Sequence record: ON470579.1 | Source of the DNA: Escherichia phage vB_EcoM-606R2 | DNA length: 42,743 nt | Direction: 5' to 3' (one strand) | Shown: piece by piece, positions 1 through 18,685 of the stretch | Layout: every line of letters starts with the position of its first letter | Position numbering within the stretch: the stretch's first letter is position 1 | Position numbers and translations under genes: made by a program | The notes under the pieces: model-generated | Database searches by the model: none | Seen by the model: the letters and a program-made list of their open reading frames with translations, nothing else | What the model was told of the DNA's origin: nothing

Positions 1-549
<549 letters not shown>

Positions 550-561
550 CTATGCTTTACT

Positions 562-1197
562 CTATTCCAGTTGCTGGAGTTCACCGCGCGGGGTTACTCG
601 CCAACGATGCTGACAGAAATAAAGCAGCGGGTTGTCCTGATTACTGTCGCTATAGCCACTGTACAACCGCAGTGGCGTGCCGATTTTACGCTCCAGTTGC
701 GCGACCTTCTCATGCCCGAGGCAACGCATCGTCAATACCCAACCACCATAGCCACGCTGAATCTGACTGGCGATAAGATTAACCCGCGGCAGCCAGGGCG
801 TATCGAAATAAACCGCTTCAACCAGCGGCTGCGGAGAGCCGGTAATCAACCAGATATCAGCATCGGAACTTAACAGGTAGGTGGTTAATCGCTCCTGAAC
901 CAGCGGAAAGGCGGTAACATTGTCACGAAACCAGCGTACGAAATCGGCCTGCAACGCCTGCAAACGCGCTTCATTGTGACCAAAAGTGCATCCCCACAGA
1001 AGCAGACTCATCGGCCAGCGTGCCGCACGGCCTTTTATCAATAACGCAATGGCTATGATCGGCAACAACGGCAGGACAAGCAACGCATTCAGCGGTTGGC
1101 GCCGCAGTAAATAACGCAAAAAACTGCCGAACATATCCTGCTGATGCAATGTTCCATCTAAGTCAAAAAACACCACACGACGCTCGTGAGTTGCCAA
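562..1197 (-). CDS. pgpC: phosphatidylglycerophosphatase C, HAD-family membrane phosphatase
   Basis: 211-aa ORF with the HAD motif FFDLDGTL and hydrophobic segments. Its position between tadA and yfhH matches the E. coli K-12 gene order as recalled. Confidence 0.82.
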   Translation of the reverse strand: MATHERRVVFFDLDGTLHQQDMFGSFLRYLLRRQPLNALLVLPLLPIIAIALLIKGRAARWPMSLLLWGCTFGHNEARLQALQADFVRWFRDNVTAFPLVQERLTTYLLSSDADIWLITGSPQPLVEAVYFDTPWLPRVNLIASQIQRGYGGWVLTMRCLGHEKVAQLERKIGTPLRLYSGYSDSNQDNPLLYFCQHRWRVTPRGELQQLE

Positions 1198-1405
1198 ACC
1201 ATACTCCTCTGGACTGAAACATCCTGATTAATTTTCGCTACTACATAGCCTAACAGATAGATCATCACTTTTCCGGCAACAATCGACCGCATCATGGCTA
1301 ACTGGAATTTTTAATTCATGGAAATTAGCGGCAATGGAATATAAAATTCACTCGCGTTTGTCTCATATTGCCTGTTGTCGCCACTATTTCATCGCGAGGA
1401 AAGAT

Positions 1406-2254
1406 ATGAACGGCTTACTTCGTATCCGTCAGCGTTACCAGGGGCTTGCCCAGAGTGATAAAAAACTGGCGGATTATCTGCTGCTACAACCTGATACGGC
1501 GCGCCATTTAAGCTCTCAGCAACTGGCCAACGAAGCCGGAGTCAGTCAGTCCAGCGTCGTGAAGTTCGCGCAAAAACTCGGCTATAAAGGTTTTCCGGCG
1601 CTTAAGTTGGCGTTGAGTGAAGCGCTGGCAAGCCAGCCGGAATCGCCCTCCGTGCCCATTCATAACCAAATCCGCGGTGATGATCCGTTACGGCTGGTCG
1701 GCGAAAAACTGATTAAAGAAAATACTGCCGCTATGTACGCAACGCTAAACGTTAATAGTGAAGAGAAACTGCATGAATGCGTAACAATGTTGCGCTCTGC
1801 GCGGCGGATAATTCTGACCGGTATTGGCGCTTCGGGTCTGGTGGCGCAAAACTTTGCCTGGAAGCTGATGAAGATTGGCTTCAATGCTGCCGCAGTGCGC
1901 GATATGCATGCGCTACTCGCTACCGTACAGGCGTCGTCCCCTGACGATCTGTTATTAGCCATTTCTTACACCGGTGTACGACGCGAGTTAAACCTGGCGG
2001 CAGATGAGATGCTGCGAGTGGGCGGAAAAGTGCTGGCGATTACCGGCTTTACTCCGAATGCCCTGCAACAGCGTGCTTCTCATTGCCTGTATACCATTGC
2101 CGAAGAACAAGCGACAAACAGTGCTTCAATCTCTGCTTGTCACGCGCAGGGAATGTTAACGGATTTGCTGTTCATTGCGCTGATTCAGCAGGATCTGGAA
2201 CTGGCTCCAGAACGTATTCGTCACAGTGAAGCGCTGGTGAAAAAACTGGTCTGA
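1406..2254 (+). CDS. yfhH: RpiR/MurR-family transcriptional regulator (HTH plus SIS domain)
   Basis: Track ORF 1334..2254; the likely true start is the ATG at 1406, preceded by GAGGAAAG. The translation has an N-terminal HTH and a C-terminal SIS-like region, and sits in the K-12 position of yfhH. Confidence 0.8.
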   Translation: MNGLLRIRQRYQGLAQSDKKLADYLLLQPDTARHLSSQQLANEAGVSQSSVVKFAQKLGYKGFPALKLALSEALASQPESPSVPIHNQIRGDDPLRLVGEKLIKENTAAMYATLNVNSEEKLHECVTMLRSARRIILTGIGASGLVAQNFAWKLMKIGFNAAAVRDMHALLATVQASSPDDLLLAISYTGVRRELNLAADEMLRVGGKVLAITGFTPNALQQRASHCLYTIAEEQATNSASISACHAQGMLTDLLFIALIQQDLELAPERIRHSEALVKKLV

Positions 2255-2309
2255 GTAAAGAATGCGCGTATAATGCCCGCCCGGTTTGTGTTGTTTTGAG
2301 AGTTTCCTT

Positions 2310-2357
2310 ATGGCGCTGTTAATCACTAAAAAATGCATCAATTGTGATATGTGTGAA
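2310..2357 (+). pseudogene. yfhL: 5' fragment of ferredoxin-like gene yfhL, interrupted by prophage insertion
   Basis: ATG at 2310 encodes MALLITKKCINCDMCE, the recalled N-terminus of the 4Fe-4S ferredoxin YfhL. The frame then diverges into AT-rich sequence and stops after two more codons. Confidence 0.65.
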
Positions 2358-2395
2358 ATTAAATAAAAATACATTTATTTTCATGGTGATGCAGT

Positions 2396-2419
2396 AATGT
2401 GTTATTGAATGTGTTATTG
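2396..2419 (+). repeat. tandem 12-bp direct repeat AATGTGTTATTG x2 near the prophage/host junction
   Basis: Read directly from the sequence; lies about 40 bp inside the presumed phage end. Confidence 0.85.
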
Positions 2420-2564
2420 AATTTATGGTGCAAAAAAATTTTGCATACGTTCAGCAACACAAAGAGCTCCCCTTTCTATAAAGGTTCATTTGAGACTCCC
2501 CCTTGACTCCCTCTTCGAAATTGAAGACCATTAACTGTACATAATTACAGTCCTGGATAATATT

Positions 2565-2831
2565 ATGCGCAGAAAAGAATCAAACGTTAGCAGTTTGCCG
2601 GAACTCACCAATTTTGAGGTAAGCTATTCCCTAGTTACCAATGAAGTTTACTTGTCTGCATCCTTCACTGATAACATGGCCTGTATACCAAACTGGCCCT
2701 TACAAGAATTTCCGGATCAACTAATATGCATTTCTCGAGCAAAAGCTATTGCCCTAATCGAAGAGCTCCAGAAGACCATCGACTATATGGACGCAGGAAT
2801 CGATCGACAATCAGGTAGCCTGCTCCAGTAG
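2565..2831 (+). CDS. hypothetical protein, AT-rich terminal cargo
   Basis: 88-aa ORF in an AT-rich region with a weak ribosome-binding site; no recognisable motif. Confidence 0.35.
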   Translation: MRRKESNVSSLPELTNFEVSYSLVTNEVYLSASFTDNMACIPNWPLQEFPDQLICISRAKAIALIEELQKTIDYMDAGIDRQSGSLLQ

Positions 2832-2964
2832 CTGGCGAGTTTTATACTCGTTCCCTGCAACAATGGGCTTTTGGTAAGGCACTCACAAATAAGGAATTCG
2901 TTAAGGCTTTTGTTCTGGAGACTCTGAAAGATACAAGGAATCAGTTGATGGCTGGTTTGATCAT

Positions 2965-3005
2965 ACTAATTAATATATTGTCAAACTCACAATATATTAA
3001 TTAGT
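2965..3005. repeat. perfect 16-bp inverted repeat (ACTAATTAATATATTG / CAATATATTAATTAGT) with 9-bp spacer
   Basis: Read directly from the sequence; lies between the 88-aa and 281-aa cargo ORFs. Candidate operator or AT-rich terminator hairpin. Confidence 0.8.
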
Positions 3006-3132
3006 GGTAGAACATAAAACCGAGTTCTTGACTTTCAATAGCTATTATATGCGATCAACAACCTTAACCATCTCCTTATATTTTATGAGATACTCAAACA
3101 ATTTAAATTTATGAGCAAAGGAAAATAATAAA

Positions 3133-3978
3133 GTGAATAAAAATCCCTGGGATATTCCAGCATGGCACGCTCTGGGCCGAGAAGCATCTTTAGTTACACA
3201 GCTCATTGGTTCTGGGGCAACAGCCATAGGTAAAGCCAATTATGCAGACAAAATAGGTGAATATTACACAGCATTTTTTGGGCTTTCTGTAGGTTTTGAG
3301 AGACTTGCTAAACTAATACTTGTTGCACACTATGCCATTGAACACAAAGGGAAAATGCCTGATGAGAATATTGTAAGAAAATTTGGACATAAGCTCATTG
3401 AATTAACCAACGAGGTTGATAGTATTTCTAAAAAAATGCAACTATCTCTGAGATATTCACGTCCTACACATAAAATTACCTACAAAATACTTGAATGTTT
3501 AGATTCCTTTGCTGATGCCCGACGGGGACGTTACGCAAATTTCTCCTCATTAAGCAGCCCCAATTTAACCAATAATGAACCTATTAATAAATGGTGGGGA
3601 GAAGTAGCCGAGAGTATCCTTGAAAAACATTATTATTATACAGTTGAACAAAGACGTGTTGAAGAAAATGCTAGGTTTATCAATGCCACTCTTTCACCGT
3701 ATACAACGGTCATGTATATGAATGAAAGTACCAACATTATGCAAGACCTTATATCAGCCTCCATCCGTACTGGACAAAATACCATTGTTCAAAAGTGGGG
3801 AAGATTCTATTCTCTTAGCATCGCTCGTTGGCTTGCCACAGTATTAGCAGAACTGTCTGATATAGCTTCTCATAAATATGGAATAATTAGTTTTTATGGC
3901 CTTAGTGAACATTGTTGCAGTTATATAGTTGAAGATAGTTTTTTAAAAAACAGAAAAATATGGCCACTTCGCCAATAG
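3133..3978 (+). CDS. hypothetical protein, AT-rich accessory gene at the prophage terminus
   Basis: 281-aa ORF with a GTG start 11 nt after AAGGA. Its composition is strongly AT-rich compared with the phage core. It sits next to the truncated invertase. Confidence 0.6.
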   Translation: MNKNPWDIPAWHALGREASLVTQLIGSGATAIGKANYADKIGEYYTAFFGLSVGFERLAKLILVAHYAIEHKGKMPDENIVRKFGHKLIELTNEVDSISKKMQLSLRYSRPTHKITYKILECLDSFADARRGRYANFSSLSSPNLTNNEPINKWWGEVAESILEKHYYYTVEQRRVEENARFINATLSPYTTVMYMNESTNIMQDLISASIRTGQNTIVQKWGRFYSLSIARWLATVLAELSDIASHKYGIISFYGLSEHCCSYIVEDSFLKNRKIWPLRQ

Positions 3979-3982
3979 TTAA

Positions 3983-4333
3983 CTAGAAAATCTGCATAAG
4001 GGGGAGAAATCCCCCACCTGTAATAACATAACTACTAAAATTAACACCTTGTTCGCACAACTCCTCCACCAGCACGACAAGATGCCGCACACTGCGCCCC
4101 AGCCGATCCAGCTTCCAGACAACCAGAGTGTCACCTGCCGATAATGTCCTGAGCAGTTTTTTCAGTCCCGGCCTTTCGGACTTTGTACCGCTTATCTTGT
4201 CTTCAAAAAACAGCTCGCATCCTGCACAGTTCAGCGCATTACGTTGTAGATCTGTGTTCTGGTCATTTGTTGACACACGTACATAGCCAATAAGCATAGT
4301 GGATCCCTCTGACAAAAGCAGGAATGATGCCAT
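3983..4333 (-). pseudogene. Hin/Gin/Pin-family serine DNA invertase, 3'-truncated
   Basis: The N-terminus MLIGYVRVSTNDQNTDLQRNAL...DRLGRS carries the serine-recombinase catalytic motif. The ORF is only 116 aa and ends in unrelated residues; the HTH DNA-binding domain is missing. Confidence 0.75.
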
Positions 4334-4722
4334 TTGCTCGTTATTTCTGCATTTTCATAAACGTTGGTTTGGGAGAAGCGGCAAAACGGAATGTGGGCAC
4401 AGGAGATAATCAGATACCGGATATGGGAGCATTCGCTTCTGGTTCGGGATGGTTCAGGCTACCAGGTGGATATATTGTTCAGTTTGGCACTTTTTCAGGA
4501 AACACGACCCGCTTTATCAGTGGACACTTCCCTATACCATTCCCTAATCAGCCGATGATTTCAGTCAGTGTTATGTCTGATGCCGTTCAGTCAGACCCGT
4601 CGAATCCTGCCCCGCAGGTTTTGTCTGTAAATTTTGAACATATCAGTAATTCAGCGTGGCGTGTGGCAACCAGTGATATCTCACAGCAATACAGATTCAG
4701 TTATATTTCGATAGGACGGTAG
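4324..4722 (+). CDS. alternative tail-fibre C-terminal variable segment (silent orientation)
   Basis: The ORF shares the crossover-site residues GLGEAAK with the expressed tail-fibre gene and is followed by an assembly gene. It would be fused to the constant N-terminal part only after inversion. Confidence 0.5.
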   Translation: MMPFARYFCIFINVGLGEAAKRNVGTGDNQIPDMGAFASGSGWFRLPGGYIVQFGTFSGNTTRFISGHFPIPFPNQPMISVSVMSDAVQSDPSNPAPQVLSVNFEHISNSAWRVATSDISQQYRFSYISIGR

Positions 4723-4724
4723 AA

Positions 4725-5165
4725 ATGCAGAAATATATTTTCAGTGCCGATAAAAATGCGTTTTTCCCTGTGGAGCTTAAAATCGCTTATCAGGAATCCG
4801 GCGAATGGCCCGATGATGGAATCGAAATTGACGACACTGTTGCTGCCGAATTTATGAAGGAAGCACCAGAAGGAAAATACAGAGGTGTCATCGACGGAAT
4901 GCCTGCATGGATTGATATTCCACCGCCAACTCATGAGGAACAAATTGCCGCAGCCGAACTGAAAAAGCAGCAATTGATTAATCAGGTCAACGAATACATA
5001 AACAGTAAGCAATGGCCTGGTAAAGCGGCGATTGGTCGCCTGAAAGGTGAGGAACTGGTGCAATATAATTTGTGGCTGGATTATCTGGACGCACTGGAAC
5101 TGGTCGATACTTCCGGTGCGCCAGATATTGAATGGCCTACGCCTCCGGCAGTTCAGGCCAGATGA
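4725..5165 (+). CDS. tail fibre assembly protein (alternative copy)
   Basis: 146-aa ORF with the conserved Tfa-type C-terminus ending WPTPPA, immediately after the alternative fibre segment. Confidence 0.7.
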   Translation: MQKYIFSADKNAFFPVELKIAYQESGEWPDDGIEIDDTVAAEFMKEAPEGKYRGVIDGMPAWIDIPPPTHEEQIAAAELKKQQLINQVNEYINSKQWPGKAAIGRLKGEELVQYNLWLDYLDALELVDTSGAPDIEWPTPPAVQAR

Positions 5166-5733
5166 CATCCGGCGCGGTGCTGGTATCTGTTGCCGTCACC
5201 GCGTCAATGTAATCCAGCACAGCGTTAAGCCGGGTTGTTTCTGCCTGCGTCAGTTTCCGCCCGGCTTGTAATTTCAGCTGAATCAGACTAATGGAAGCCA
5301 TTGCTGCATCAATCAGTGACTGGCGCTGTGCTTCTGACGCGTCTACTGCGGCGCTATGCTGTGCCTCGGTATCCGTCACCCATTTCTCACCATCCCATTT
5401 ATCGTATGGCGTTAACGGTGAAAGCGTGACATAACCATCTTTGATGGCACCGATATAATCCACTGTAACAGCTGCGCCATTTTCGATTGAGTAAACAGTC
5501 TCATTGCGATGGTCCTCTTCATGGCTCCATCCCTTACCTGTAAATACAGCCACTTTTCCCGGAATGTTTTCGCCAGGGTTAATTCCAGTGGAACAGGCGG
5601 GCATACTTACGCCAGTATTAATATATTCATCAGACCAGCCCGTATACTCAGATGTTTCAGCATCATAATAAAAACAACGCATATCGCCCGGCACTGTAGC
5701 CAGTCCATTTTCATCAAAAATTGGGGTCATCAT
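5137..5733 (-). CDS. tail fibre assembly protein
   Basis: 198-aa ORF with a Tfa-like C-terminus ending IWPELPEA, downstream of the expressed tail-fibre gene. Confidence 0.7.
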
Positions 5734-6542
5734 TTAGCCCTCACCAGAAAGTTAAATGCAATATTTCGCGGTCTGACGGCAACAAAATTCACACCATCAC
5801 CCACAGAGTTACTGGTGAAATTAAATCGTGAAAATCCTGGCTGATTTCCGGCGATACCATCATGAAAATTAATTGTGTGGCCCGCACCATCGCCTATATT
5901 CCCGGCAAACTGAGAAAAGTTTGTAGCTGCCTGCCAGCTTAATAATTCGCGACCACCGTCTGCACCTCGCCCGTCATCCCAGATACGAATGAAATCACCG
6001 CGGGCTTCAGGTAATACCAGCGAAGGAAACACTTTCGCCAGCACAGGGTAATCAGAGGCAGAAAATTTCGCCCCGTTAAACTTCAAAAACACCATACCGG
6101 ACCAGCTGTCGATGACAGAATTTGGCATTGCAGCGGACGGCCAGAAGAACGGAACGCCAATAGCTGGGGCACCTTCTCCCAAACCAAGGTTTTCGAGAGC
6201 TGTTTTCACCGTGCCGTCCGATTTGATATCGCCAAACGGATTCTTGCGGCTCAGGTATTCAACAGCAAACCCCGATCCCAGCAATTCAACAAAACCGGGC
6301 AGATCACCATTATCAAGCACATCCCGTTGCGTTTTATCACTTACAAACTGGGCCAGAGCTGCAGCAATAAAGCTGGCCTGCCGAATAACCTTATTGACTT
6401 GCGCACTGGAGGCTTTCCCTGCTGTAAATCCAGATAAAAGCGCGGGCAACGCTTCCCATTCCTCCTGCGATATAACATTGGCATTTCGATCCGTTGCAAA
6501 CGCTTTAAAGTCATTTTTCGCCATCAGAGTAATACTCCCCAT
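5730..6542 (-). CDS. tail fibre protein (constant N-terminus plus variable C-terminus)
   Basis: 270-aa ORF at the end of the baseplate operon; it contains the crossover site and is followed by an assembly gene. Confidence 0.7.
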
Positions 6543-7204
6543 GCTCCTACATCAAAACCACTGATGAATTCGTTATCCATATCAAAACCAAAAAATTTTG
6601 AGCCTTCCGATGGGGTTTCCACCGAAGGTGTTTCAATGCCACCCGCCCATACCCCGGCGGCTTTTACTGTGAGATACCCCTGTTTAATTGCCGCAATTAA
6701 CTCACGCGATACATCTGAAATATCAGTATCAGGAAAGACCCAGACCGATATCGTCATGTCCTGGTTATCGACTATCTGCATTCGCAGCCCGGATCCTGCT
6801 GTTGCCGCGTCAAGAATTGCCGGAAGCGAATCATTCCGTCCGTCCCAGTTATTAATCGCAATCTTCGCTTTAAGAATGACACGATAAGTTTCATCGCTGA
6901 GATACATGTATCCTGAATCAGGATCGTATGGTCCCTGCCATACCCCCTGATCATATCCAAGCCCGTCGGTATCCCAGCTGAAATAGACACCTGAGATAGG
7001 CTGGCTGACAACACGGCTACGTCCGATCCACAATCCAAGGATGTCAAGTTGCACACCAACCGCAGAGTCAATATCAAATGCACTAATCAGCCCTCTGGTG
7101 GCAGCCGCAACATCAATAAGTGGCCGGGTCATCAGATCAACATGCGCAAGAAATTTAGGTTTGGTGGCGTGGTAGTTCGTGATTAGTTCGGTGTATTTGC
7201 TCAT
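6524..7204 (-). CDS. baseplate/tail protein (Mu gp48 / P2 gpI-like)
   Basis: 226-aa ORF between the J-like baseplate gene and the tail fibre; call rests on position and size. Confidence 0.5.
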
Positions 7205-8400
7205 GACTCCACCGTTATAACGATATTTTTCGGGGTACAGGACGCAGATTCGTTGTATCTGATATCAATGTTTGATGACGACAAAGCCCCCGGGGATTTC
7301 CCAATCGTCAGTTCCTGAATATCGTAATAGCGTGCATTCCCGCCACTCACCACGCCAAGATTCGCCGGTGAGTAAATGCGACTTAAAAGGACCGAATCAC
7401 CAATCATCAGACTATTGATATAGTCGGAAATAGCCTGCTGGATCTGCTGCCCTATCTGTGAGGTATAACCCGTAAAAACTTTTAATTTAATCAGGGCATA
7501 AACAGGCACATCACTGGAACGCGAGAATTTGATTACATGGGGATTGCCGTATTTATCCGGAACCGTAACGGATGTTGTACCGTGAGTGGCTGTCCCCTGG
7601 CCTTTATTCCCTCTGATAGCCTGAGCAATATCCGTTACATCACCGCCATCCACAATTACAGCAACAGAGTGTGGCGGTAACCCGTTACCGTCCTCCGAAC
7701 CAGTATCGTTTTCATAGAGTTTGTGGCGGGTTACACCGGTAACATTAGAAACAGCACCATCCAGTGCTTCAAATGGGGTTATTGATGGCAACGCAACACT
7801 TTGCGACTGGCGGATACGTAACTCAGCGTCAGTTTCTGCCGGAGTGCCCACAGTGGCTGCAGCAGGATTGGTTACCGAAACCCAGCCACGGGTTGGCGTA
7901 TTAATTTCAGTGATAGTTCCAGCCAGCGCCGCCACTGCACCACTGACGGAACATGTTGCGGTCACCATCACTGTACCATCCACGCCTACCACCACTGAAG
8001 CAGGCAAACGCCATATCACATTATTACTGTCTTTCACGCTGCCATTAATGATGGTTGTTCCGGCAGTTCCTGTAAGAAGCAAATCAACCGTAGAGTTCGT
8101 CGCGCCTTTACGTGAAATACCATTTATTTTCACGTTACAGGTCAGTGCAGCCCCATAGCCGGTTGCCGGTGAAAAACAGTTGTAGACAGTTATCGCAGTA
8201 TTATTGGCATCATGAATCGCCAGCGCCATCAGAGCCACCATCTGGCCGTCTTTGCTGTCCGGTTCGAGGTAGGCATCACTGCCATAAATCTGCTGAAAAT
8301 AGCTAATCAGGGTGCTGAGTATCGTCTGATAATCAGGCGCACTGATCCCCTCCGCGGTTACCTTTGCAGATAAACCGAGAGAATCAAGGTTCAGAGCCAT
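7201..8400 (-). CDS. baseplate J-like protein
   Basis: 399-aa ORF in the conserved baseplate order W-J-I-fibre. Confidence 0.6.
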   Translation of the reverse strand: MALNLDSLGLSAKVTAEGISAPDYQTILSTLISYFQQIYGSDAYLEPDSKDGQMVALMALAIHDANNTAITVYNCFSPATGYGAALTCNVKINGISRKGATNSTVDLLLTGTAGTTIINGSVKDSNNVIWRLPASVVVGVDGTVMVTATCSVSGAVAALAGTITEINTPTRGWVSVTNPAAATVGTPAETDAELRIRQSQSVALPSITPFEALDGAVSNVTGVTRHKLYENDTGSEDGNGLPPHSVAVIVDGGDVTDIAQAIRGNKGQGTATHGTTSVTVPDKYGNPHVIKFSRSSDVPVYALIKLKVFTGYTSQIGQQIQQAISDYINSLMIGDSVLLSRIYSPANLGVVSGGNARYYDIQELTIGKSPGALSSSNIDIRYNESASCTPKNIVITVES

Positions 8401-8753
8401 TACGCCTCCGATGTAACAGTCGTTATTCCATAAAGAGTGTCGATTTCAGCGGAAAACATGACACGTCGGGTCGTGGTATCCAGCGTCGTATTGAAAGAGA
8501 GGATTGATTTAACGCCCTGCGTTTCGAGGATGCGCTTACGGATCGCCAGGTTGTAGGTTTCCGGCTTCTGCTTACCGAGTACGGACTGGATCCACGGAGT
8601 CCCCTCGGTGGTGTCGAGAAACCATTGCCCATACCACAATTCGAATCGCGTTTTTACCGCCTGCGCCACGGCCTCCGGTGAGTTAATCAGCCAGGTGTCA
8701 TCACCGCTGCCAAAGGTGTAATCGCCATCGGCGTCTTCACGTCTGTATCGCAT
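8400..8753 (-). CDS. baseplate protein, gpW / GP46-like
   Basis: 117-aa ORF immediately upstream of the J-like gene, with coupled start/stop overlap. Confidence 0.55.
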   Translation of the reverse strand: MRYRREDADGDYTFGSGDDTWLINSPEAVAQAVKTRFELWYGQWFLDTTEGTPWIQSVLGKQKPETYNLAIRKRILETQGVKSILSFNTTLDTTTRRVMFSAEIDTLYGITTVTSEA

Positions 8754-9505
8754 CAGTTTACCCCGTCGGTACTGCTTCCACCGCGCTGAACACCACCATG
8801 AGTGTGCGTATCATCGATTGGCTTGCCGTTAGCCTTCACGCTCCCCAAAAACTCAACAGCACCAGTGATTTTTGAAGCCACACCAGAAACCACAGACCCC
8901 ACCATGCCCCCCATCCAGGTTAACAGGCCATGAATGGTTACTTTCTCAGAAAAATCAGCCAGGGGGGCAACCACATCAAGCCCCCCCGGAGCGACAATTT
9001 TAATTTTCCTGGTATCAGGATTAAGCTCAAAATAGGTGCTGCCGTCGTCACTACGCAACTGTGTGGCACTGGTATTAATACCGCTAATCTTCCTAGCCTG
9101 CGACTGGGGACCGACAATACAAAACGCATCCGATAAATCATGCATTCTGTCATCAACCGTCTCCTGTATCCCGCCGCTCTGCCACCAGAAATCAATACAA
9201 CGATCGGCAAAAACGACAAGACACTCATCCCCAGCTTTTACCGGAAAAGTCAACGTACAGCCTCCGCCGCGCGGGAATACCACTGGCACATCCACCAGCA
9301 ATGGGTAATTTTTGGTAATGCGGTTACCGTCGTTATCCTTTTCAACTGACCGGATAGCTGGCTGCACAACCGCCGTCACCGCGTCAGGATCGAATGACTG
9401 AATAATGCCAGGCAAGGCGACACGGATCTGGTTCTTTGTTGTTTCCCGTTCAGATTTAAATGTTTCGGCAAGATCGCCACTGCGGGTCTGGTCAGTTACT
9501 GCCAT
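8753..9505 (-). CDS. baseplate spike / assembly protein V-like
   Basis: 250-aa ORF with a C-terminal HTHGG-type apex motif, in the position expected for a gpV-like protein. Confidence 0.55.
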   Translation of the reverse strand: MAVTDQTRSGDLAETFKSERETTKNQIRVALPGIIQSFDPDAVTAVVQPAIRSVEKDNDGNRITKNYPLLVDVPVVFPRGGGCTLTFPVKAGDECLVVFADRCIDFWWQSGGIQETVDDRMHDLSDAFCIVGPQSQARKISGINTSATQLRSDDGSTYFELNPDTRKIKIVAPGGLDVVAPLADFSEKVTIHGLLTWMGGMVGSVVSGVASKITGAVEFLGSVKANGKPIDDTHTHGGVQRGGSSTDGVN

Positions 9506-9520
9506 TGGTAGGCTCCAAAA

Positions 9521-9541
9521 AGCAAAAAACCCGCCGGGTGG
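9521..9541 (-). terminator. putative intrinsic terminator downstream of the moron pair
   Basis: On the minus strand, a short GC hairpin (ACCCGGCGGGT) is followed by TTTTTT, directly after the stop of the 170-aa ORF. Confidence 0.3.
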
Positions 9542-9565
9542 CAGGTTTTATCTCATGAAGAATGA

Positions 9566-10078
9566 CTATCGGTGGATAGTATTAAAGTATTCAGAAAGCT
9601 GATTATCAGTTATCAAACACAACTGCATCAAATAAATAGAGTATTTCAATAACTTTTCATCACGAACGGGGGCGGGACGTAAATACTTCCCGCCGTGAAA
9701 GAGATTATTTCTTATATACGGGATCTGCTTTAATGCTTCAGCAAGAGAATGAGGTTCGATTGGAGGTTTATCCTCCCACGAAAAATCATGCCTCTGCTGC
9801 TTCACAGGTTGCTGACATAGATACTCAACTGCCCTATCGACATTTCTATTTCCAGTAGGATATAAAGGCCGCGTATCATCAGTAGCGTAGCGGCTCCAGT
9901 CAGCACCGATTAGATAATTTCTACGATCAGTTTTTTTGAAATTAATTCTTTTTAACGCATATTCGAAACGCGAAAAATAATTAAAAAACCTTATAACAAG
10001 AGTAATATCAATTCCGCCGAGAAGTTCCTGAAAGTCAGGGTCTTGAAATGAATTCAAAGGATCATCATCAACTGTCAC
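9566..10078 (-). CDS. hypothetical protein with HEPN-like Rx4H motif (moron in baseplate operon)
   Basis: 170-aa AT-rich ORF containing IRNNLFHGG (R-x4-H). It interrupts the otherwise conserved baseplate gene order. Confidence 0.5.
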   Translation of the reverse strand: MTVDDDPLNSFQDPDFQELLGGIDITLVIRFFNYFSRFEYALKRINFKKTDRRNYLIGADWSRYATDDTRPLYPTGNRNVDRAVEYLCQQPVKQQRHDFSWEDKPPIEPHSLAEALKQIPYIRNNLFHGGKYLRPAPVRDEKLLKYSIYLMQLCLITDNQLSEYFNTIHR

Positions 10079-10410
10079 TTGCTGCTCACTTTTTTACACG
10101 GGAAAGATCCAATGATTTTCGGCGCGTCCATGCTGTTCTGCAGCAGCTGGACGTTCAGGAAAGCTTTTCCGTTACGTTTCACAAACTCAAAGCCGTAATT
10201 GTTACCATCACGGGAAGGCATCAGGCCCATGTCCATTTTCATGTTTGAATAGTCACCATCTTTTCCCAGAAATTTTATCTTCTGTGATGTGACAGTTTCA
10301 CCGTTAATAACAGTCATTCCGTCACCGGTCATCGTGTAGTTGCCGCACTGAATTGCAGCCATCGCCGGAGCAGTAACCATCATAACTAACGCCAAACATA
10401 ACCGTTTCAT
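10075..10410 (-). CDS. secreted/periplasmic hypothetical protein
   Basis: 111-aa ORF with a typical N-terminal signal peptide (MKRLCLALVMMVTAPAMA). Its stop overlaps the start of the HEPN-like ORF. Confidence 0.55.
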   Translation of the reverse strand: MKRLCLALVMMVTAPAMAAIQCGNYTMTGDGMTVINGETVTSQKIKFLGKDGDYSNMKMDMGLMPSRDGNNYGFEFVKRNGKAFLNVQLLQNSMDAPKIIGSFPCKKVSSK

Positions 10411-10829
10411 TAAAGCCCTCTTTCCCTCGCTGATGAGGAAACAAGATCCGCCGCGCCACGCGCTTCACACATCATATCCATGTACCACGCCTGGCCCCTT
10501 GTGTCGCCAGTGTACATAATCCCGCGCACAATATAAACGCCATCCGTTGCGATGCTGGCAGGCTGCGATGTGGTGCCGCTGAGCGTGATATTTCCGTCCG
10601 TGTTCTGGTCGGTGATCTGACCACCAGCCATCGCAATATCGTTGTTCGACAACGCGGTACGATAGACGGAAGCCTGATCCAGCTGAATGAGCCCGTTAAC
10701 CCGGATGTTCGGATTAATAAGCGCGCGGACGTTTACGCCGTTACCGATAGTCTGCTGCGGCATTCCAATAAGCCCGGTAGCGCTGTTGAGCACAATCGCT
10801 TCGTGAACATATTCGTTATTCACCACCAT
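10410..10829 (-). CDS. tail/baseplate protein
   Basis: 139-aa ORF within the tail operon; call rests on position only. Confidence 0.45.
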   Translation of the reverse strand: MVVNNEYVHEAIVLNSATGLIGMPQQTIGNGVNVRALINPNIRVNGLIQLDQASVYRTALSNNDIAMAGGQITDQNTDGNITLSGTTSQPASIATDGVYIVRGIMYTGDTRGQAWYMDMMCEARGAADLVSSSARERGL

Positions 10830-10835
10830 CTGGCG

Positions 10836-11474
10836 CTAACCGTCCACGAATTGCCATGTTGCGCCACATTGTCCGGCTACGTTATCCATTAGATGCCGCG
10901 TCATGCCAAAGAGTACCCGCCCCCGGGGGAATACAGTAGCAGGCATTTCAGGCGTCAGGCCTTCGGTCGCGCCTTTGGCTTCGAAGTCTTTCATCAGCGC
11001 ACGGTTCACATCAGCGACCGTGTAACCGGCAGCCAGCGTCTGTGAGGTTATACTGGTAGCAAAAGCCAGATCAGTATCTGCTGCCTGAATCAGGACGTAG
11101 GTATCAACCGGACTGTCTTTTCCTGTGACCGAGTAGCGAATTTCACCGCTGAAAATCAGTCCGTAGTTGCGGCCATCTCTCTGGCCCACGTCCGCCGCGT
11201 CAACTTCCCGCACGGTCCCTACGTCGCTTGCTGACACCTCCGGCGCGATACCGTCGTAACCGGCAATCAGACGCACTTTCGAAAACTCCTGCCCGGTAAT
11301 TCGGTTCACAGTATCTGCCGAGAGGTTATAAATTTTGATAGTCCCTACCCGGGACGCGCTGCTGATGTTGAACCAGTCGATCGTAAAGGTGACTTTGAAA
11401 TCACTTAGCTCAATTCCCTGACCGTTCCCGTCCACAAGCTGCAGCTCGAAATGTCTCATCCAGTTCTGTGACAT
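10836..11474 (-). CDS. tail/baseplate protein (hub-like position)
   Basis: 212-aa ORF within the tail operon; call rests on position only. Confidence 0.45.
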   Translation of the reverse strand: MSQNWMRHFELQLVDGNGQGIELSDFKVTFTIDWFNISSASRVGTIKIYNLSADTVNRITGQEFSKVRLIAGYDGIAPEVSASDVGTVREVDAADVGQRDGRNYGLIFSGEIRYSVTGKDSPVDTYVLIQAADTDLAFATSITSQTLAAGYTVADVNRALMKDFEAKGATEGLTPEMPATVFPRGRVLFGMTRHLMDNVAGQCGATWQFVDG

Positions 11475-11476
11475 GC

Positions 11477-11779
11477 TTACTCCGTTGATACCAGTAAATG
11501 GCTGCGACCGCCCAGGTCAGTTTTTGTGGGGTAATCCTGTGTGTTGTCATCACAGACCACCACCAGCTTAAAACCAAGCCCCATACAGGCGTACTGCGCC
11601 AGCAGGTCAGCACCAGTGACGAGAGGAATACCGGAGATTACCGGCTCCCCTCTGTCGTTCTGCAGGTCCATAATCCAGTACAGATCGCGCCATATGATGC
11701 TAATCCGCCAGGTGACACCACCCAGGACGATGCTGAACTGCTGGTTGTCCGCTGTCAGCGGAATTTCCTGAATTGTCAT
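11477..11779 (-). CDS. tail protein
   Basis: 100-aa ORF, translationally coupled to its neighbours. Confidence 0.45.
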   Translation of the reverse strand: MTIQEIPLTADNQQFSIVLGGVTWRISIIWRDLYWIMDLQNDRGEPVISGIPLVTGADLLAQYACMGLGFKLVVVCDDNTQDYPTKTDLGGRSHLLVSTE

Positions 11780-12366
11780 TAGCCGCCCCCCAGTAATGAC
11801 GCCACGTTACCCGTGATGCTTTTCAGCAGTGAAGTATCTGGAGGCTTTGTGGTTTTGTTGCCGCTGTTCTGTACCGCCGACGTGCTGGCCCCTTCCTTCA
11901 TGTTGGTTTTATCCGCGACGGTAATCTGCTGTGTCCGGGAGATAATGACCTCCCTCAGGGTGAGGACGGCGGACAGGACGTTTTCGGTTGTCTTGTCCGT
12001 CGTCACTTCCAGCGCCCGGATCAACATGTTGCTGTACAGCCGTTTACCGGTTACCACATCGAAGGGGATACGGCTTTCCTGCAGACCCAGTAGCTCCTGA
12101 TACGTCTGCTGAGGACTCAGGCCGAGCAGGCTGGTAGCCGTCAGGTTACTGGCAAAATCCAGCAATGCGCCGCCACCGGCGAAACCAACCTCCATCACCA
12201 CTTCTGACGGTTTTTTATAGGCATGATCAGCGACAGCGGCCCCGACCTCTACCGGATGCTCTGTTATTTCAAGCATATCTGTATGCTTCTCTGAAATAAC
12301 AACACTGGGAACAATCATTCCTATTTTTCTGCTCTGCTGATGAAAAAGTGTAGAGAGAATATCCAC
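11779..12366 (-). CDS. tail protein downstream of tape measure
   Basis: 195-aa ORF; start/stop overlap with the tape measure gene. Confidence 0.45.
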   Translation of the reverse strand: MDILSTLFHQQSRKIGMIVPSVVISEKHTDMLEITEHPVEVGAAVADHAYKKPSEVVMEVGFAGGGALLDFASNLTATSLLGLSPQQTYQELLGLQESRIPFDVVTGKRLYSNMLIRALEVTTDKTTENVLSAVLTLREVIISRTQQITVADKTNMKEGASTSAVQNSGNKTTKPPDTSLLKSITGNVASLLGGG

Positions 12367-14351
12367 TAACCCACCCTCACCTGATTACTTCGCATGACCT
12401 GAGCATTTGCAGACTGTTGCCGACGTGCAACCTCATTACCGACAGCGTGCGGATCTCCGCCACCGTAAATGTGGTAGGTATTTTGCTGGTTAACCTCTGT
12501 CACTTTGCCACTAATTCCCGCCACGGCAGCCTTATTAATCAGCTCTCGAGAATAGATATTTCTTCCATTCTCATGCTGGATAATGCTGCTCATCAATGCT
12601 GACATGGTTTGCGGATCGCTCATATTCAGGGCAGCCCGGGGATCCACTCCCAGTCGTTGCGATACAGCCCTGATATACGCTGTTGTGTTGTTATTATCAG
12701 ACGCAGGTGCCCAGGTAGAGATAATTTTCTCCACACTGTTTATTCCCCGTCCGGCGTACAGCATTAACTGACGAGCAAGAGCCCGTAATCCATCAAAGGC
12801 AGTTTCAAATCTGGCAAATCGCCCGCCCGGGCGTTCAAGAGAAGCCCCTGCCTGACCAGCAAAATTAAGGTTTCCCGGATTGTTATTCCGTTCTCCTCGT
12901 TTCGTAGCCTGTGCATATTGTTCCGGCTCAGCACCTGGAATATCTGACTGAATATTTGCGCCTTTTACGGTATGAGGATTACGACCAAAATCGGTATCAA
13001 TGCCAAGCCAGCGCAATGAATCTCCAATATTTTGTTTCGTGTAATCCCAGGATGACTTCGCACTGGCACCAATATTTTCGCGATCAGAGTACAAATACGC
13101 AGCATAAGCCATCCAGCCTTTTAACCACGGCGGGACCGGCAAACCTGATATTTTCCCGAAAGCCCCCAGAACCCTGGATACCCAGACACCCGCGATGAAT
13201 GTACCAAGGATTTCCAGTGCATTTTGCCAGCCGCCAACACCATCTTTTAGTTCCAGAAGGTGATCACGAAGCCAGGTGATCGCATCCTTCGCTTTATCTA
13301 TTGCCGGTTGCCATTTTTCCCAGTCGATAAGACTGTTACCGCCTTCTTTCCATGTTTTGTAGTCTTCCCACAAGAGACCGAGAGCCACGATCAGACCGGT
13401 AATCAGCCCTATAGGTGACATCCAGAAAGTAGAGTTAAGTATCCGCATGGCGACAACCAGACCGCCGATAACCTCTATCAGGGTTTTCGTTTCGGCATCC
13501 AGTTTCCCCCACCACTCGATGATATCTCCGACACCATCGACTATCCGAAATGCTACCCGCCCGACTATCTCACCCAGCCAGAGGATCCCCTTTATGACCT
13601 TTGTGATGGTGACTTCAATTTTGGGAAAATTTTCAATTATCTTTTTGCGCAGGTTATCAATCTGCCCCGCCAGTCCGTCCGCAAGATTCGATCCGATTTT
13701 GTCCCGCGCCATCCTGGCCATTTCACCGAGCGATTTCAGCGAGGTCATAAACCGGTTTGACGATAAGGCAGCCTGATCGGCATTAAATCCGATCGCTTTC
13801 ACCATTTCTGAATACTGAGCGCTGAACTGCCCCACTCCGCGACGCATAGCCATCAGGGTATTTTCGTCAATGCCCAGCATCTGCGCATACTGGTTAGCCC
13901 GGTAATACGGCATGCTGCTGAGTTTCTGTCCAACGCCCGTAAAGATAGCAGCCATGTCACGCATGTTACCGCTGGCATCACGGGTCTGTACGCCCAGGCG
14001 ATTCAGAAAGCCTTCTGCTCCGGGATTGTTACGAATAAACCGGGAGAGGCTTTCCAGAGAAGATCGCGCAGCGTCCACACTGCCGCCAACCTGCGAAACC
14101 GCATAGCCAATAGACTGAATTCCCTGGACCGTCGCGCCGGTGCGCTGTGACGCCCAGTAAAGATTATCCAGGCCGGAGGCGATCTTAGCCGTGAAGGCCA
14201 CCACGGACAGCGCAGCCCCTTCAACAGCCAGCCCCATTTTGATGACATTTGCAGTTGTACCGGCGAGGACAGAACCGAACTTTTTCGCTCCTGCATCATC
14301 CACACGGAAGCCAAGCGAGACGAGGAAATCTTTAATAGTTTCAGCGTTCAT
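12366..14351 (-). CDS. tail tape measure protein
   Basis: The largest tail ORF (track start is a TTG at 14372; likely start is the ATG at 14351 after GGAGAGAGG). The protein is helical and Ala/Gly-rich with central hydrophobic segments, and lies directly after the chaperone frameshift pair. Confidence 0.75.
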   Translation of the reverse strand: MNAETIKDFLVSLGFRVDDAGAKKFGSVLAGTTANVIKMGLAVEGAALSVVAFTAKIASGLDNLYWASQRTGATVQGIQSIGYAVSQVGGSVDAARSSLESLSRFIRNNPGAEGFLNRLGVQTRDASGNMRDMAAIFTGVGQKLSSMPYYRANQYAQMLGIDENTLMAMRRGVGQFSAQYSEMVKAIGFNADQAALSSNRFMTSLKSLGEMARMARDKIGSNLADGLAGQIDNLRKKIIENFPKIEVTITKVIKGILWLGEIVGRVAFRIVDGVGDIIEWWGKLDAETKTLIEVIGGLVVAMRILNSTFWMSPIGLITGLIVALGLLWEDYKTWKEGGNSLIDWEKWQPAIDKAKDAITWLRDHLLELKDGVGGWQNALEILGTFIAGVWVSRVLGAFGKISGLPVPPWLKGWMAYAAYLYSDRENIGASAKSSWDYTKQNIGDSLRWLGIDTDFGRNPHTVKGANIQSDIPGAEPEQYAQATKRGERNNNPGNLNFAGQAGASLERPGGRFARFETAFDGLRALARQLMLYAGRGINSVEKIISTWAPASDNNNTTAYIRAVSQRLGVDPRAALNMSDPQTMSALMSSIIQHENGRNIYSRELINKAAVAGISGKVTEVNQQNTYHIYGGGDPHAVGNEVARRQQSANAQVMRSNQVRVG

Positions 14352-14528
14352 TATCCTCTCTCCATTTCTCAATGCGTCGCTGGTTATCCGCTTTTACCGC
14401 CAGATGGTCATTCAAGAGAGCAATGTCATACAAATCGACAGAGCCATCTTTAAGTGCTGTATAAGGAATTAACCCGGCGTCAACCGGATTGAGAAGGTAG
14501 GACAGCCCGTCCGGCAGGCTGTTAAACG

Positions 14529-14981
14529 TCAGCCCTGTTGCAGGCTCTGCGTCGTGCTGGTAAGGGGTGTAGGCAAAAAATTTCCCAGCGAATCGGCGAC
14601 CACCCGCGCCACCAGCTGCAGCATGACCAGCAAGTCAATATCATCAAACATCAGTTCGCCCTGGGTAAATACCGGCACCCATCCGTCCATATGACGCCGC
14701 GATACCACCGCAAGACAGGGATGAATAATCGCATCGGTGTCATCTTCGGTCAGGGAAGACAGTTCCTCAGCGATACGCGGGAGCATGGTTTCAAACACCG
14801 GTTTTAACTGTTCGAATTTCACGGTGTCGATTTTGCCGTCAGCAGGCAAACGGGAGCGAATACTCCCGAAATCTGACATCATTCCTGCCAGCACCGGCAG
14901 AAGTTTGCGGGTCACTTTCAGCTGGTCAAAAACGCTGAGTTTTGCCGTGCGATATTTCACGCCTTTAATTTCGAATTCCAT
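14529..14981 (-). CDS. tail assembly chaperone (G-like), upstream partner of a -1 frameshift
   Basis: 150-aa ORF between the tail tube and tape measure genes. The slippery heptamer GGGAAAT lies 15 codons before its stop, and the -1 frame stays open to 14341. Confidence 0.6.
   Translation of the reverse strand: MEFEIKGVKYRTAKLSVFDQLKVTRKLLPVLAGMMSDFGSIRSRLPADGKIDTVKFEQLKPVFETMLPRIAEELSSLTEDDTDAIIHPCLAVVSRRHMDGWVPVFTQGELMFDDIDLLVMLQLVARVVADSLGNFLPTPLTSTTQSLQQG
14580..14586 (-). other. programmed -1 ribosomal frameshift site (slippery heptamer G GGA AAT)
   Basis: Canonical X XXY YYZ heptamer in the zero frame of the chaperone gene. The -1 frame downstream is open for about 80 codons and ends at a TGA overlapping the tape measure start. 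Confidence 0.6.
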
Positions 14982-14984
14982 GCA

Positions 14985-15425
14985 TTAAAACTCCCCGAGA
15001 ACCTGGTCAATCTTGCCGCAGTCAAACACCCACGGCATCGTATTACCGGTTTTAGCGTTGGCGTTATCCGGTTGTTTCTGGAACGCAACACTGCGTGCCG
15101 TGATGATGTCGCCGCTGACCTTGTTGCGGATAACGATAACGTTATTCCCCCATGTGGCAGAAGACTGGCTCTGTGCGTTATACGCCAGCGACAATTTTTT
15201 ATTTGTCGGTGATGTCTTCAGAAGGTTAACGGTAATCGTCCCGCTTTTATCTGCATGGAGGCTGTGCATCACTTCACCATCAGCACCGATGGTCATGGTG
15301 TTTTTAGGACCGCCCATCGCAACCACAATCCCCTCTTCAGAACTTGCCGAACCGTACCCGAGGTCAATCGAACCGGTCGGCCCGGTCAGCGTCGCAGTGA
15401 CATCCATAAAAGAATAGGTAGACAT
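14985..15425 (-). CDS. tail tube protein
   Basis: 146-aa ORF immediately downstream of the sheath gene. Confidence 0.6.
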   Translation of the reverse strand: MSTYSFMDVTATLTGPTGSIDLGYGSASSEEGIVVAMGGPKNTMTIGADGEVMHSLHADKSGTITVNLLKTSPTNKKLSLAYNAQSQSSATWGNNVIVIRNKVSGDIITARSVAFQKQPDNANAKTGNTMPWVFDCGKIDQVLGEF

Positions 15426-15435
15426 TCACTTCCCC

Positions 15436-16581: not shown

Positions 16582-16584
16582 AGC

Positions 16585-18644: not shown

Positions 18645-18685
18645 CGGGTCATCCTTAATGGCCCCGCCAGGGGGCCATGTGGCTG

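What the first reader, a model, noticed from the sequence alone, without database searches (positions are those of the whole stretch)
2310..2420. Prophage inserted into the 5' end of ferredoxin-like gene yfhL
The host sequence encodes the first 16 residues of YfhL and then switches abruptly to AT-rich phage DNA. A tandem 12-bp repeat lies 40 bp inside the phage end. Integration at this position disrupts the gene rather than reconstituting it at this junction, which is unusual for a temperate phage.
Basis: partly seen in the sequence, partly recalled or inferred. Interest (0 to 1): 0.4.

Follow-up and report, generated by a model that had tools for sequence, protein, structure and literature searches.

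The report
Prophage left junction in yfhL gene
This is the left attachment junction of a 42-kb tailed prophage sitting in the E. coli ferredoxin gene yfhL. The gene is not destroyed, because the phage carries its own copy of the first 16 codons and rebuilds a full-length yfhL at the other junction, so this is an ordinary kind of integration.

Summary
Window 2310-2357 holds the first 16 codons of yfhL. Homology to uninterrupted E. coli loci stops at 2357, AT-rich phage DNA follows, and a perfect 12-bp tandem repeat lies at 2396-2422.

The interpretation that the gene is disrupted is not supported. In a genome whose junction is 100% identical, the other junction lies about 1.8 kb past the window end. 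There a tyrosine integrase sits 214 nt from an intact, annotated 86-aa yfhL. Its first codons (MSLLITKRC...) come from the phage.

The exact shared core is 18 bp, AATTGTGATATGTGTGAA (2340-2357). Two metagenomic viral contigs carry the predicted attP itself.

The same integrase-to-yfhL arrangement recurs in 160 of 5426 complete E. coli genomes and in Citrobacter, Kluyvera, Serratia, Erwinia, Pantoea and Providencia. 83 of 97 sampled loci have a full-length ORF.

The tandem repeat belongs to a TGTGTT motif family with five copies on both attP arms, kept in divergent phages. These are most likely arm-type integrase sites.

yfhL is already a published prophage site, and replacement of a gene's 5' end by the element is known from dusA-specific integrases. 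I rate this a new member of a known kind, of low to moderate interest. Whether the hybrid gene is expressed remains untested.

The parts
1..2309 (.). Host chromosome flank: tadA (1-537, -), yfhB/pgpC (562-1197, -), yfhH/murR (1406-2254, +), and the native yfhL upstream region with a TATAAT at 2269-2274.
   Evidence: ORFs. Annotation of the matching K-12 and WP3 loci. The -10 assignment is read from the sequence and is an inference.
2310..2357 (+). The original host 5' end of yfhL (codons 1-16, MALLITKKCINCDMCE), displaced to attL. The reading frame continues into phage DNA as IK and stops at 2364-2366.
   Evidence: translation. (homology to uninterrupted loci ends at 2357).
2340..2357 (.). The 18-bp core AATTGTGATATGTGTGAA, identical in attL, attB, attR and attP. 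Strand exchange must occur inside it. It encodes part of the CxxCxxC cluster-binding motif.
   Evidence: Alignment A1. attP contigs L023 and L047. The first phage/host mismatches are at 2339 and 2358.
2358..2481 (.). The attP arm far from the integrase, on the tail-fibre/cargo side. It is conserved among prophages that carry different cargo beyond it.
   Evidence: BLAST to strain AF20 extends only to window 2481 (hit H2). Alignment A2 shows conservation to about 2466.
2396..2422 (+). The tandem 12-bp repeat AATGTGTTATTG x2.2, which gives two direct copies of the WTGTGTTRYNG motif (2397-2407 and 2409-2419). These are candidate arm-type integrase binding sites.
   Evidence: Tandem Repeats Finder; motif search; conservation in divergent attP sequences and on the other arm.
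2452..2462 (-). A third copy of the arm motif, in inverted orientation (TTGTGTTGCTG).
   Evidence: only 3 matches in 42.7 kb, all within 66 bp, against 0.83 expected. The copy is invariant in L023, AF20 and L063.
2429..2445 (.). An AT-rich palindrome, TGCAAAA-AAA-TTTTGCA, lying between the arm motifs. Its role is unknown; it could be an accessory-protein binding site.
   Evidence: Read directly from the sequence. Conserved in L023 and AF20 but not in L063.
2482..3980 (+). A variable AT-rich cargo block with ORFs at 2565-2831 (88 aa) and 3133-3978 (281 aa). Both point the same way as the native yfhL promoter left at attL.
   Evidence: A different cargo occupies the same position in strain AF20.
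2358..42743 (.). The body of the prophage, a SEN34-like myovirus. It includes a truncated invertase, tail fibres, baseplate, tail, head, terminase, primase, DNA polymerase, a TIR protein and an SNF2 helicase. The window stops about 1.84 kb short of the other junction, so the xis-like HTH gene, the integrase, the integrase-side arm and the hybrid yfhL are missing.

Best explanation
Window 2310-2481 is attL of a roughly 42.2-kb temperate myovirus. A phage tyrosine integrase inserted it by site-specific recombination into codons 11-16 of the ferredoxin gene yfhL. The phage attP carries a start codon and a look-alike of yfhL codons 1-16. The last 18 bp of this look-alike are identical to the host sequence and form the crossover core. 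Recombination therefore has two outcomes. At attL (this window) it leaves the original promoter and the first 16 codons as a dead-end 18-codon ORF. At attR, about 40 kb away and just beyond the window, it fuses the phage-borne 5' end to host codons 17-86. This gives a full-length hybrid YfhL with A2S and K8R substitutions and all eight cysteine ligands kept. The 12-bp tandem repeat is a pair of arm-type integrase sites. It belongs to a set of five TGTGTT motifs: three on this arm and two on the integrase-side arm. Together with IHF-like sites, these would assemble the recombination complex as in phage lambda. Shown by the data: the junction, the core, attP, the intact ORF at attR, and the recurrence and conservation of the arrangement. 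Inferred: binding of the integrase to the motifs, the position of strand exchange within the 18 bp, and expression of the hybrid gene.
For: Host homology ends at window 2357. A genome 100% identical over 1900-2900 has this order at the other end: HTH, tyrosine integrase, 214 nt, intact annotated yfhL, shoB, acpS. That yfhL translates to an 86-aa protein beginning MSLLITKRC. It scores 135.7 bits against the YfhL equivalog model, whose cut-off is 86. Every genome has only one copy of the yfhL body. attP is seen directly: metagenomic viral contigs L023 and L047 have integrase, 214 nt, ATGTCTTTACTAATTACTAAACGCTGTATT, the core, and then sequence about 90% identical to window 2358-2470, including the repeat. 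The attL junction occurs in 123 and the attR junction in 160 of 5426 complete E. coli genomes. In GTDB genomes and IMG/VR contigs the integrase lies 213-216 nt from a yfhL start in eight or more genera, and the ORF is full length in 83 of 97 loci. Phage-borne codons 1-10 vary mainly at third positions: 9 of 10 third positions vary, 2 of 10 second positions vary, and 27 of 30 upstream non-coding sites vary; pairwise codon differences are 1049 synonymous against 404 non-synonymous. The motif WTGTGTTRYNG occurs only three times in the window, all within 2397-2462. TGTGTT pairs are invariant in 18 diverse integrase-side arms whose spacers have diverged. Serratia phage OS31 has a 77% identical integrase and a published 23-bp att site at the same codons.
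Against: attR of the actual source strain is outside the window, so the intact hybrid is inferred from genomes with identical junctions. No conserved sigma-70-like promoter and no clear Shine-Dalgarno sequence was found upstream of the hybrid start codon, so expression of the rebuilt gene is unproven. The integrase matches Pfam Phage_integrase only just above threshold (30.4 bits against a 27.1 cut-off). Its arm-binding-domain match is below threshold (13.6 bits), and it has no PDB sequence relative. The excess of synonymous differences could reflect capture of yfhL 5' ends from other hosts rather than selection acting within the phage. Many IMG/VR loci are near-identical E. coli prophages, so the 83 of 97 figure is not a count of independent cases.
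Confidence: 0.85

Rival explanations
1. True gene disruption. The prophage inactivates yfhL, either as collateral damage or as an excision-dependent on/off switch of the kind called active lysogeny. Under this view no functional copy exists in the lysogen.
For: At this junction the ORF is cut after 16 codons. Bobay et al. 2013 list yfhL among genes disrupted by phage integration. No convincing promoter or ribosome-binding site lies upstream of the hybrid start, so the rebuilt ORF could be silent. A few loci do have broken copies: L016, L017 and L066.
Against: A full-length hybrid ORF sits at attR in genomes with the identical junction, and NCBI's annotation pipeline calls it YfhL. 83 of 97 related loci across many genera keep it full length. 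The phage-borne codons show coding-type conservation. The start codon and reading frame are preserved in attP itself.
Confidence: 0.1
2. The phage-borne 5' look-alike is a leftover of an ancient imprecise excision, or of capture from another host. It is retained only because the integrase needs core-like sequence. Under this view ORF restoration is incidental and not selected, and the tandem repeat is a slippage duplication or a binding site for Xis or another accessory protein rather than for the integrase.
For: The mimic's AT-rich codons differ from E. coli yfhL at 11 of the first 30 nt, which would fit an origin in another species. Mosaic 5' ends in L038, L040 and L068 show recombination within the duplicated segment. 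Tandem direct repeats in the lambda P arm include Xis sites (my own knowledge of lambda attP).
Against: Codons 1-9 lie outside the 18-bp identity yet stay in frame, keep a start codon and vary mostly synonymously across integrase lineages of 58-100% identity. The adjacent non-coding 30 nt vary at 27 of 30 sites. The TGTGTT motif occurs on both arms and in both orientations, and it is invariant while the spacers diverge. That pattern fits arm-type integrase sites better than Xis sites, which in lambda lie on one arm only.
Confidence: 0.15
3. The insertion is not site-specific. Under this view the junction arose from a transposable (Mu-like) phage, from illegitimate recombination, or from an assembly or prophage-prediction artefact.
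For: The window has the same boundaries as a software-delimited 'phage genome' record, ON470588, which includes host genes and lacks an integrase. The phage is a myovirus with an invertase and a tail-fibre switch like those of Mu and P1.
Against: The same base-exact junction occurs in 123 complete genomes. There is an 18-bp direct repeat at both ends, a tyrosine integrase adjacent to attR, and attP-bearing contigs. No transposase was found, and the same target is used in other genera.
Confidence: 0.01

Closest known systems
dusA-specific integrases and their islands and prophages (Farrugia et al. 2015, PMC4482086)
   Same: Integration occurs in the 5' end of a conserved housekeeping gene. The element supplies a new 5' end that restores a full-length ORF, and the original 5' end is left as a remnant at the far boundary. 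The integrase gene lies next to the restored gene.
   Different: The target gene differs (yfhL ferredoxin rather than dusA). The relationship between the two integrase families was not tested. Here the replaced segment includes three of the cysteine ligands of an Fe-S cluster.
Serratia phage vB_SspS_OS31 (MT843276; Bujak et al. 2020, PMC7556043)
   Same: The integrase is 77% identical. The target is the same ferredoxin gene and the same codons, with a 23-bp att site TGCATCAACTGCGACATGTGCGA. The integrase-side arm has the same layout, with a tandem TGTGTT pair and a phage-borne start codon (MALLITKRC).
   Different: OS31 is an HK97-like siphovirus of Serratia, not a SEN34-like myovirus of E. 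coli. Its core is matched to the GC-richer Serratia sequence. In the passages I searched, the paper reports the site as an insertion in the gene and does not mention ORF restoration.
Phage 21 and e14 integration in icd
   Same: Integration occurs inside a protein-coding gene, and a phage-borne duplicate of the displaced gene end leaves the ORF length unchanged (Bobay et al. 2013).
   Different: In icd the 3' end is replaced, so the native promoter and start are kept. In yfhL the 5' end, the start codon and all upstream signals are replaced.
Phage lambda attP architecture (core plus P and P' arms with arm-type Int sites and IHF sites)
   Same: There is a short identical core. Repeated arm motifs lie on both sides (three plus two copies). 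IHF-consensus-like sites lie between arm sites and core. The integrase gene is adjacent to one arm.
   Different: The reconstructed attP is larger, about 390 bp. The core lies inside a coding sequence. int and the xis-like gene are convergent. No protein binding was tested.
Published yfhL prophage insertions (Bobay et al. 2013; Stx2b prophages, PMC10675304 and PMC12029490)
   Same: The same chromosomal site in E. coli.
   Different: Those reports describe yfhL as disrupted or simply as the insertion site. The data here show a restored full-length ORF at the integrase-side junction.

Membership tests
Tyrosine-integrase site-specific prophage junction (attL) | A short sequence is identical at both prophage ends, in the empty site and in the phage attP. 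| tested here: met
   The 18-bp AATTGTGATATGTGTGAA is present in attL (window 2340-2357), attB (K-12), attR (WP3 genome) and attP (L023, L047).
Tyrosine-integrase site-specific prophage junction (attL) | A tyrosine recombinase gene lies next to one att site. | tested here: met
   A 465-aa ORF lies 214 nt from attR in the identical-junction genome. It scores 30.4 bits against PF00589 (cut-off 27.1) and 1.5e-26 against PHROG 1 'integrase'. It lies outside the window.
Tyrosine-integrase site-specific prophage junction (attL) | The integrase has the catalytic R-K-H-R-H/W-Y residues and an N-terminal arm-binding domain. | tested here: inconclusive
   The catalytic-domain match is only just above threshold. 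The Arm-DNA-bind_3 match is 13.6 bits against a cut-off of 27 (17.4 bits for OS31). There was no PDB sequence match.
Tyrosine-integrase site-specific prophage junction (attL) | Repeated arm-type sites lie on both attP arms. | tested here: met
   There are five WTGTGTTRY motifs, at -173, -160, +57, +69 and +113 (inverted) relative to the core. They are invariant across divergent arms. Protein binding itself cannot be tested with these tools.
Tyrosine-integrase site-specific prophage junction (attL) | An excised or free form carrying attP exists. | tested here: met
   Metagenomic viral contigs L023 and L047 join the integrase-side arm to the cargo-side arm through the core.
5'-end-replacing integration (dusA type) | The element inserts in the 5' end of the gene and supplies a replacement 5' end that gives a full-length ORF. 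| tested here: met
   The hybrid is 86 aa with a phage-derived start and codons 1-16. 83 of 97 loci are full length.
5'-end-replacing integration (dusA type) | The original 5' end is left as a remnant at the distal boundary. | tested here: met
   Window 2310-2357.
5'-end-replacing integration (dusA type) | The integrase belongs to the dusA-associated integrase clade. | not tested
NCBIfam gave no hit for this integrase. I claim similarity of mechanism, not membership of that clade.
5'-end-replacing integration (dusA type) | The restored gene is transcribed and functional. | not testable with these tools
   Only consensus scans were possible, and they found no conserved promoter facing yfhL.
Gene-disrupting prophage insertion or active-lysogeny switch | The lysogen has no intact copy of the target ORF. 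| tested here: not met
   An intact annotated yfhL lies at attR, and each genome has a single copy of the gene body.
YfhL family 2[4Fe-4S] ferredoxin (the hybrid protein) | The protein passes the equivalog model and keeps all eight cysteine ligands. | tested here: met
   NF033683 scores 135.7 bits against a cut-off of 86. C9, C12, C15, C19, C38, C41, C50 and C54 are present in the translation.

The most novel reading that the evidence does not exclude
Integration may work as a promoter swap. The native yfhL promoter, left at attL, would read through the 18-codon stub into the co-oriented AT-rich cargo genes at 2565-3978, giving them expression only in the lysogen. Meanwhile the conserved low-potential ferredoxin YfhL would be cut off from its own signals and placed behind the integrase-side arm. 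That arm carries a conserved LexA-box-like palindrome overlapping a promoter-like site that faces the integrase gene. Host ferredoxin expression would then become dependent on the phage or on the SOS response.
Probability: 0.12. Interest if true: 0.5.

Novelty: new member of a known kind. Interest (0 to 1): 0.27.

Why it matters
This result corrects a likely mis-scoring. Pangenome and prophage surveys count yfhL as a gene disrupted by phage (Bobay et al. 2013). In fact a family of integrases found across Enterobacterales rebuilds the ORF from a phage-borne start codon and 16 codons.

It gives a second clear example, after dusA, of integration that replaces the 5' end of a gene. It also defines a compact and portable module: the integrase, an attP of about 390 bp, and an 18-23 bp target in an invariant Fe-S-binding motif. 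That module could serve as an integration tool.

The result also flags a GenBank 'complete phage genome' that is really a mis-delimited prophage. None of this overturns current understanding.

Tried and rejected
- A PDB sequence search with the integrase found nothing.
- NCBIfam had no model for the integrase.
- A distant BLAST of the integrase/attR region against 50,697 phage records found only Serratia phage OS31 and an irrelevant short Pseudomonas match. SEN34, the closest structural relative of this prophage, was not among those matches.
- A simple sigma-70 scan, and a relaxed scan of my own over 18 aligned integrase-side arms, found no positionally conserved promoter facing yfhL. They found only one facing the integrase gene. 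I therefore do not claim that the hybrid gene is expressed.
- I considered a leaderless-mRNA reading of the conserved GTAA-N5-TTGAW-ATG block. I set it aside because the block fits the IHF consensus, with at most one mismatch, and because some lineages use GTG starts.
- No paper could be found for vB_EcoM-611R5.
- Pfam, PHROGs, NCBIfam and PADLOC gave nothing for the 281-aa cargo ORF.
- Two literature searches failed on syntax.
- A Mu-like random insertion was rejected because the junction is base-exact and recurrent.

Full report
**What is in the window**

Bases 1-2309 are E. coli chromosome. They hold tadA and yfhB on the minus strand and yfhH/murR on the plus strand. An ATG at 2310 opens MALLITKKCINCDMCE, which is identical to residues 1-16 of K-12 YfhL. 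The frame then reads IK and stops.

I ran window 1900-2900 against 5426 complete E. coli genomes. Every genome matched, but in uninterrupted loci the match ended at query base 458, which is window 2357. GC content drops from 50-53% to 36-42% beyond that point.

Tandem Repeats Finder reports AATGTGTTATTG x2.2 at 2396-2422. It is a perfect repeat and the only array in the whole window scoring 50 or more.

**The prophage**

Bases 2358-42743 are a SEN34-like myovirus prophage. The structural region is 81% identical to SEN34 over 63% of its length. The prophage also encodes a primase, a DNA polymerase, a TIR protein and an SNF2 helicase.

The window has the same span as the reverse complement of GenBank record ON470588, 'Escherichia phage vB_EcoM-611R5, complete genome'. 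That record is a mis-delimited prophage: it contains the three host genes and lacks an integrase.

**The other junction**

E. coli WP3-W18-ESBL-08 is 100% identical over window 1900-2900 (hit H1). In that genome the prophage continues about 1.84 kb past the window end. The order there is a 201-bp HTH (xis-like) gene, a convergent 1398-bp tyrosine integrase gene, 214 nt of non-coding DNA, then an intact annotated yfhL followed by shoB and acpS.

That yfhL encodes 86 residues beginning MSLLITKRCINCDMCEPECPNE. It differs from the K-12 N-terminus only by A2S and K8R and keeps all eight cysteines. It scores 135.7 bits against the YfhL equivalog model, whose cut-off is 86. Each genome has only one copy of the gene body.

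The lysogen's single yfhL is therefore a phage-host hybrid, and the window copy is the displaced original 5' end.

**The att sites**

A three-way alignment of attL, attB and attR gives an exact shared core of 18 bp, AATTGTGATATGTGTGAA, at window 2340-2357. The first mismatches fall at 2339 (host C, phage T) and at 2358 (phage A, host C). Upstream of the core the phage copy of codons 1-10 differs from the E. coli copy at 11 of 30 nt.

The attP predicted by joining the phage sides exists in nature. IMG/VR metagenome contigs L023 and L047 carry the integrase, 214 nt, ATGTCTTTACTAATTACTAAACGCTGTATT and the core. They then continue with sequence about 90% identical to window 2358-2470, including the tandem repeat. 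This forms a mini-ORF, MSLLITKRCINCDMCEIK.

**Recurrence**

The attL junction as in the window occurs in 123 of 5426 complete E. coli genomes. The attR junction occurs in 160, and all 40 listed rows are annotated as yfhL plus integrase.

Relatives of the integrase (58-95% identical) occur in Kluyvera, Citrobacter, Shimwellia, Sodalis, Providencia, Serratia, Erwinia and Pantoea. In each they lie 213-216 nt from the start of a yfhL ORF. Of 97 genome and viral loci, 83 have a full-length ORF of 84-91 aa. The exceptions are:
- two attP contigs;
- two attP-like variants;
- two decayed copies;
- one 82-aa copy;
- two loci with no 5' segment found;
- five truncated at contig ends.

Many of these loci are near-identical E. 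coli prophages, so they are not all independent.

Serratia phage OS31 is an HK97-like siphovirus. Its integrase is 77% identical, and its published 23-bp att site lies at the same codons. The integration module therefore moves between unrelated phage types.

**Is the phage-borne 5' end constrained as coding sequence?**

Among 26 distinct phage-borne versions of codons 1-10, nine of ten third positions vary but only two of ten second positions. In the adjacent 30 non-coding nt, 27 of 30 sites vary. Differing codons between pairs are 1049 synonymous against 404 non-synonymous.

This pattern fits selection for an intact N-terminus. Origin of the segments from the yfhL genes of other hosts would give a similar pattern and is not excluded. 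Either way the ORF is preserved.

**The tandem repeat**

The motif WTGTGTTRYNG occurs three times in 42.7 kb, against 0.83 expected by chance, and all three copies lie within 2397-2462. Two are the direct tandem copies and one is inverted.

The integrase-side arm carries two more tandem copies, AATGTGTTGCGG and CTTTGTGTTACTGG. These TGTGTT pairs are invariant in 18 arms from diverse lineages whose spacers have diverged.

The same three-copy layout is kept in the divergent arm of L063. The reconstructed 396-bp attP has motifs at -173, -160, +57, +69 and +113 relative to the core. It also has IHF-consensus-like sites, each with one mismatch, at -42 and -73.

Presence on both arms argues for arm-type integrase sites rather than Xis sites. 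Binding is inferred, not shown.

**What is not established**

I found no conserved sigma-70-like promoter or clear Shine-Dalgarno sequence upstream of the hybrid start. The only positionally conserved promoter-like element faces the integrase gene: TTGATC, 18 nt, then TAAACT. Its -35 element overlaps a conserved CTG-N10-CAG palindrome that resembles a LexA box. Expression of the hybrid yfhL is therefore open.

The native yfhL promoter stays at attL and points into co-oriented cargo ORFs at 2565-2831 and 3133-3978. No terminator-like site was detected in between on that strand. Read-through is possible but untested.

**Comparison with the literature**

[quoted passage not shown] 2013.
- It was reported as a 'newly identified' Stx2b prophage site in 2023 and 2025.
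- The Serratia OS31 paper places the insertion in the homologous ferredoxin gene.
- In the passages I retrieved by term search, none of these papers mentions ORF restoration.
- The closest mechanistic precedent is the dusA-specific integrases. Those elements replace the 5' end of dusA and leave the original 5' end at the far boundary.
- Phage 21 and e14 in icd are the 3'-end counterpart.

**Verdict**

The claim of disruption and rarity is not supported.

This is attL of a recurrent, site-specific prophage whose attP mimics and replaces the 5' end of yfhL. It is a new, well-defined member of a known kind. Interest is low to moderate, mainly as a correction to how this site is scored and as a clean attP anatomy.

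Noticed in passing
window 40782-40789 (within 40365-41286): The window carries a 4-bp tandem CAAT duplication relative to E. coli WP3-W18-ESBL-08; the GenBank record ON470588 annotates the same gene as an uninterrupted 918-bp (305-aa) ORF. The duplication splits that hypothetical gene, which has a weak TIR-effector hit, into two ORFs at 40365-40856 and 40975-41286.
   Followed up: partly
window 3983-4333 (-) and 4324-5733: The DNA invertase ORF is only 116 aa and has just the resolvase N-terminal domain. The related yfhL prophage of strain AF20 has a 184-aa PinE. The neighbouring tail-fibre tip and chaperone cassettes on opposite strands look like an invertible host-range switch that is now probably frozen.
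   Followed up: partly
window 2482-3980: A variable AT-rich cargo block sits next to attL. It holds an 88-aa ORF (PHROG 17793, function unknown) and a 281-aa ORF with no hit in Pfam, PHROGs, NCBIfam or PADLOC. Both point the same way as the native yfhL promoter. Strain AF20 carries different cargo (DUF2335) in the same slot.
   Followed up: partly
window 38874-39635 (+): A TIR-domain protein in the replication module matches the PADLOC candidate defence family PDC-S35 at 1e-108. It also weakly matches the Cap12 TIR NADase models.
   Followed up: no
whole window compared with GenBank ON470588: The GenBank record 'Escherichia phage vB_EcoM-611R5, complete genome' has the same boundaries as the window. 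It includes 2.36 kb of host genes (tadA, yfhB, yfhH), annotated as phage genes. It lacks the xis-like gene, the integrase and one att arm.
   Followed up: yes
L001 37468-37682 (the integrase-side arm, outside the window): A conserved LexA-box-like palindrome (for example CACTGTATCAACATACAGTA) lies at -92 from the hybrid yfhL ATG. It overlaps the -35 element of a positionally conserved promoter-like site that faces the integrase gene. This suggests SOS-controlled integrase expression.
   Followed up: partly
L038, L040, L068, L066, L016, L017: L038, L040 and L068 have mosaic hybrid 5' ends: phage-type for the first 14 nt, then host-type. In L066 an attP-like junction is followed after about 70 nt by the rest of yfhL. 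L016 (E. coli ECMA0423) and L017 (Shigella flexneri SFBU1023) have a truncated integrase gene plus a frameshifted yfhL.
   Followed up: no
window 2494-2515 and 2429-2445: A weak second tandem repeat, GACTCCCCCTT x2, lies just beyond the conserved arm. An AT palindrome, TGCAAAA-AAA-TTTTGCA, lies between the arm motifs and is conserved in L023 and AF20 but not in L063.
   Followed up: no
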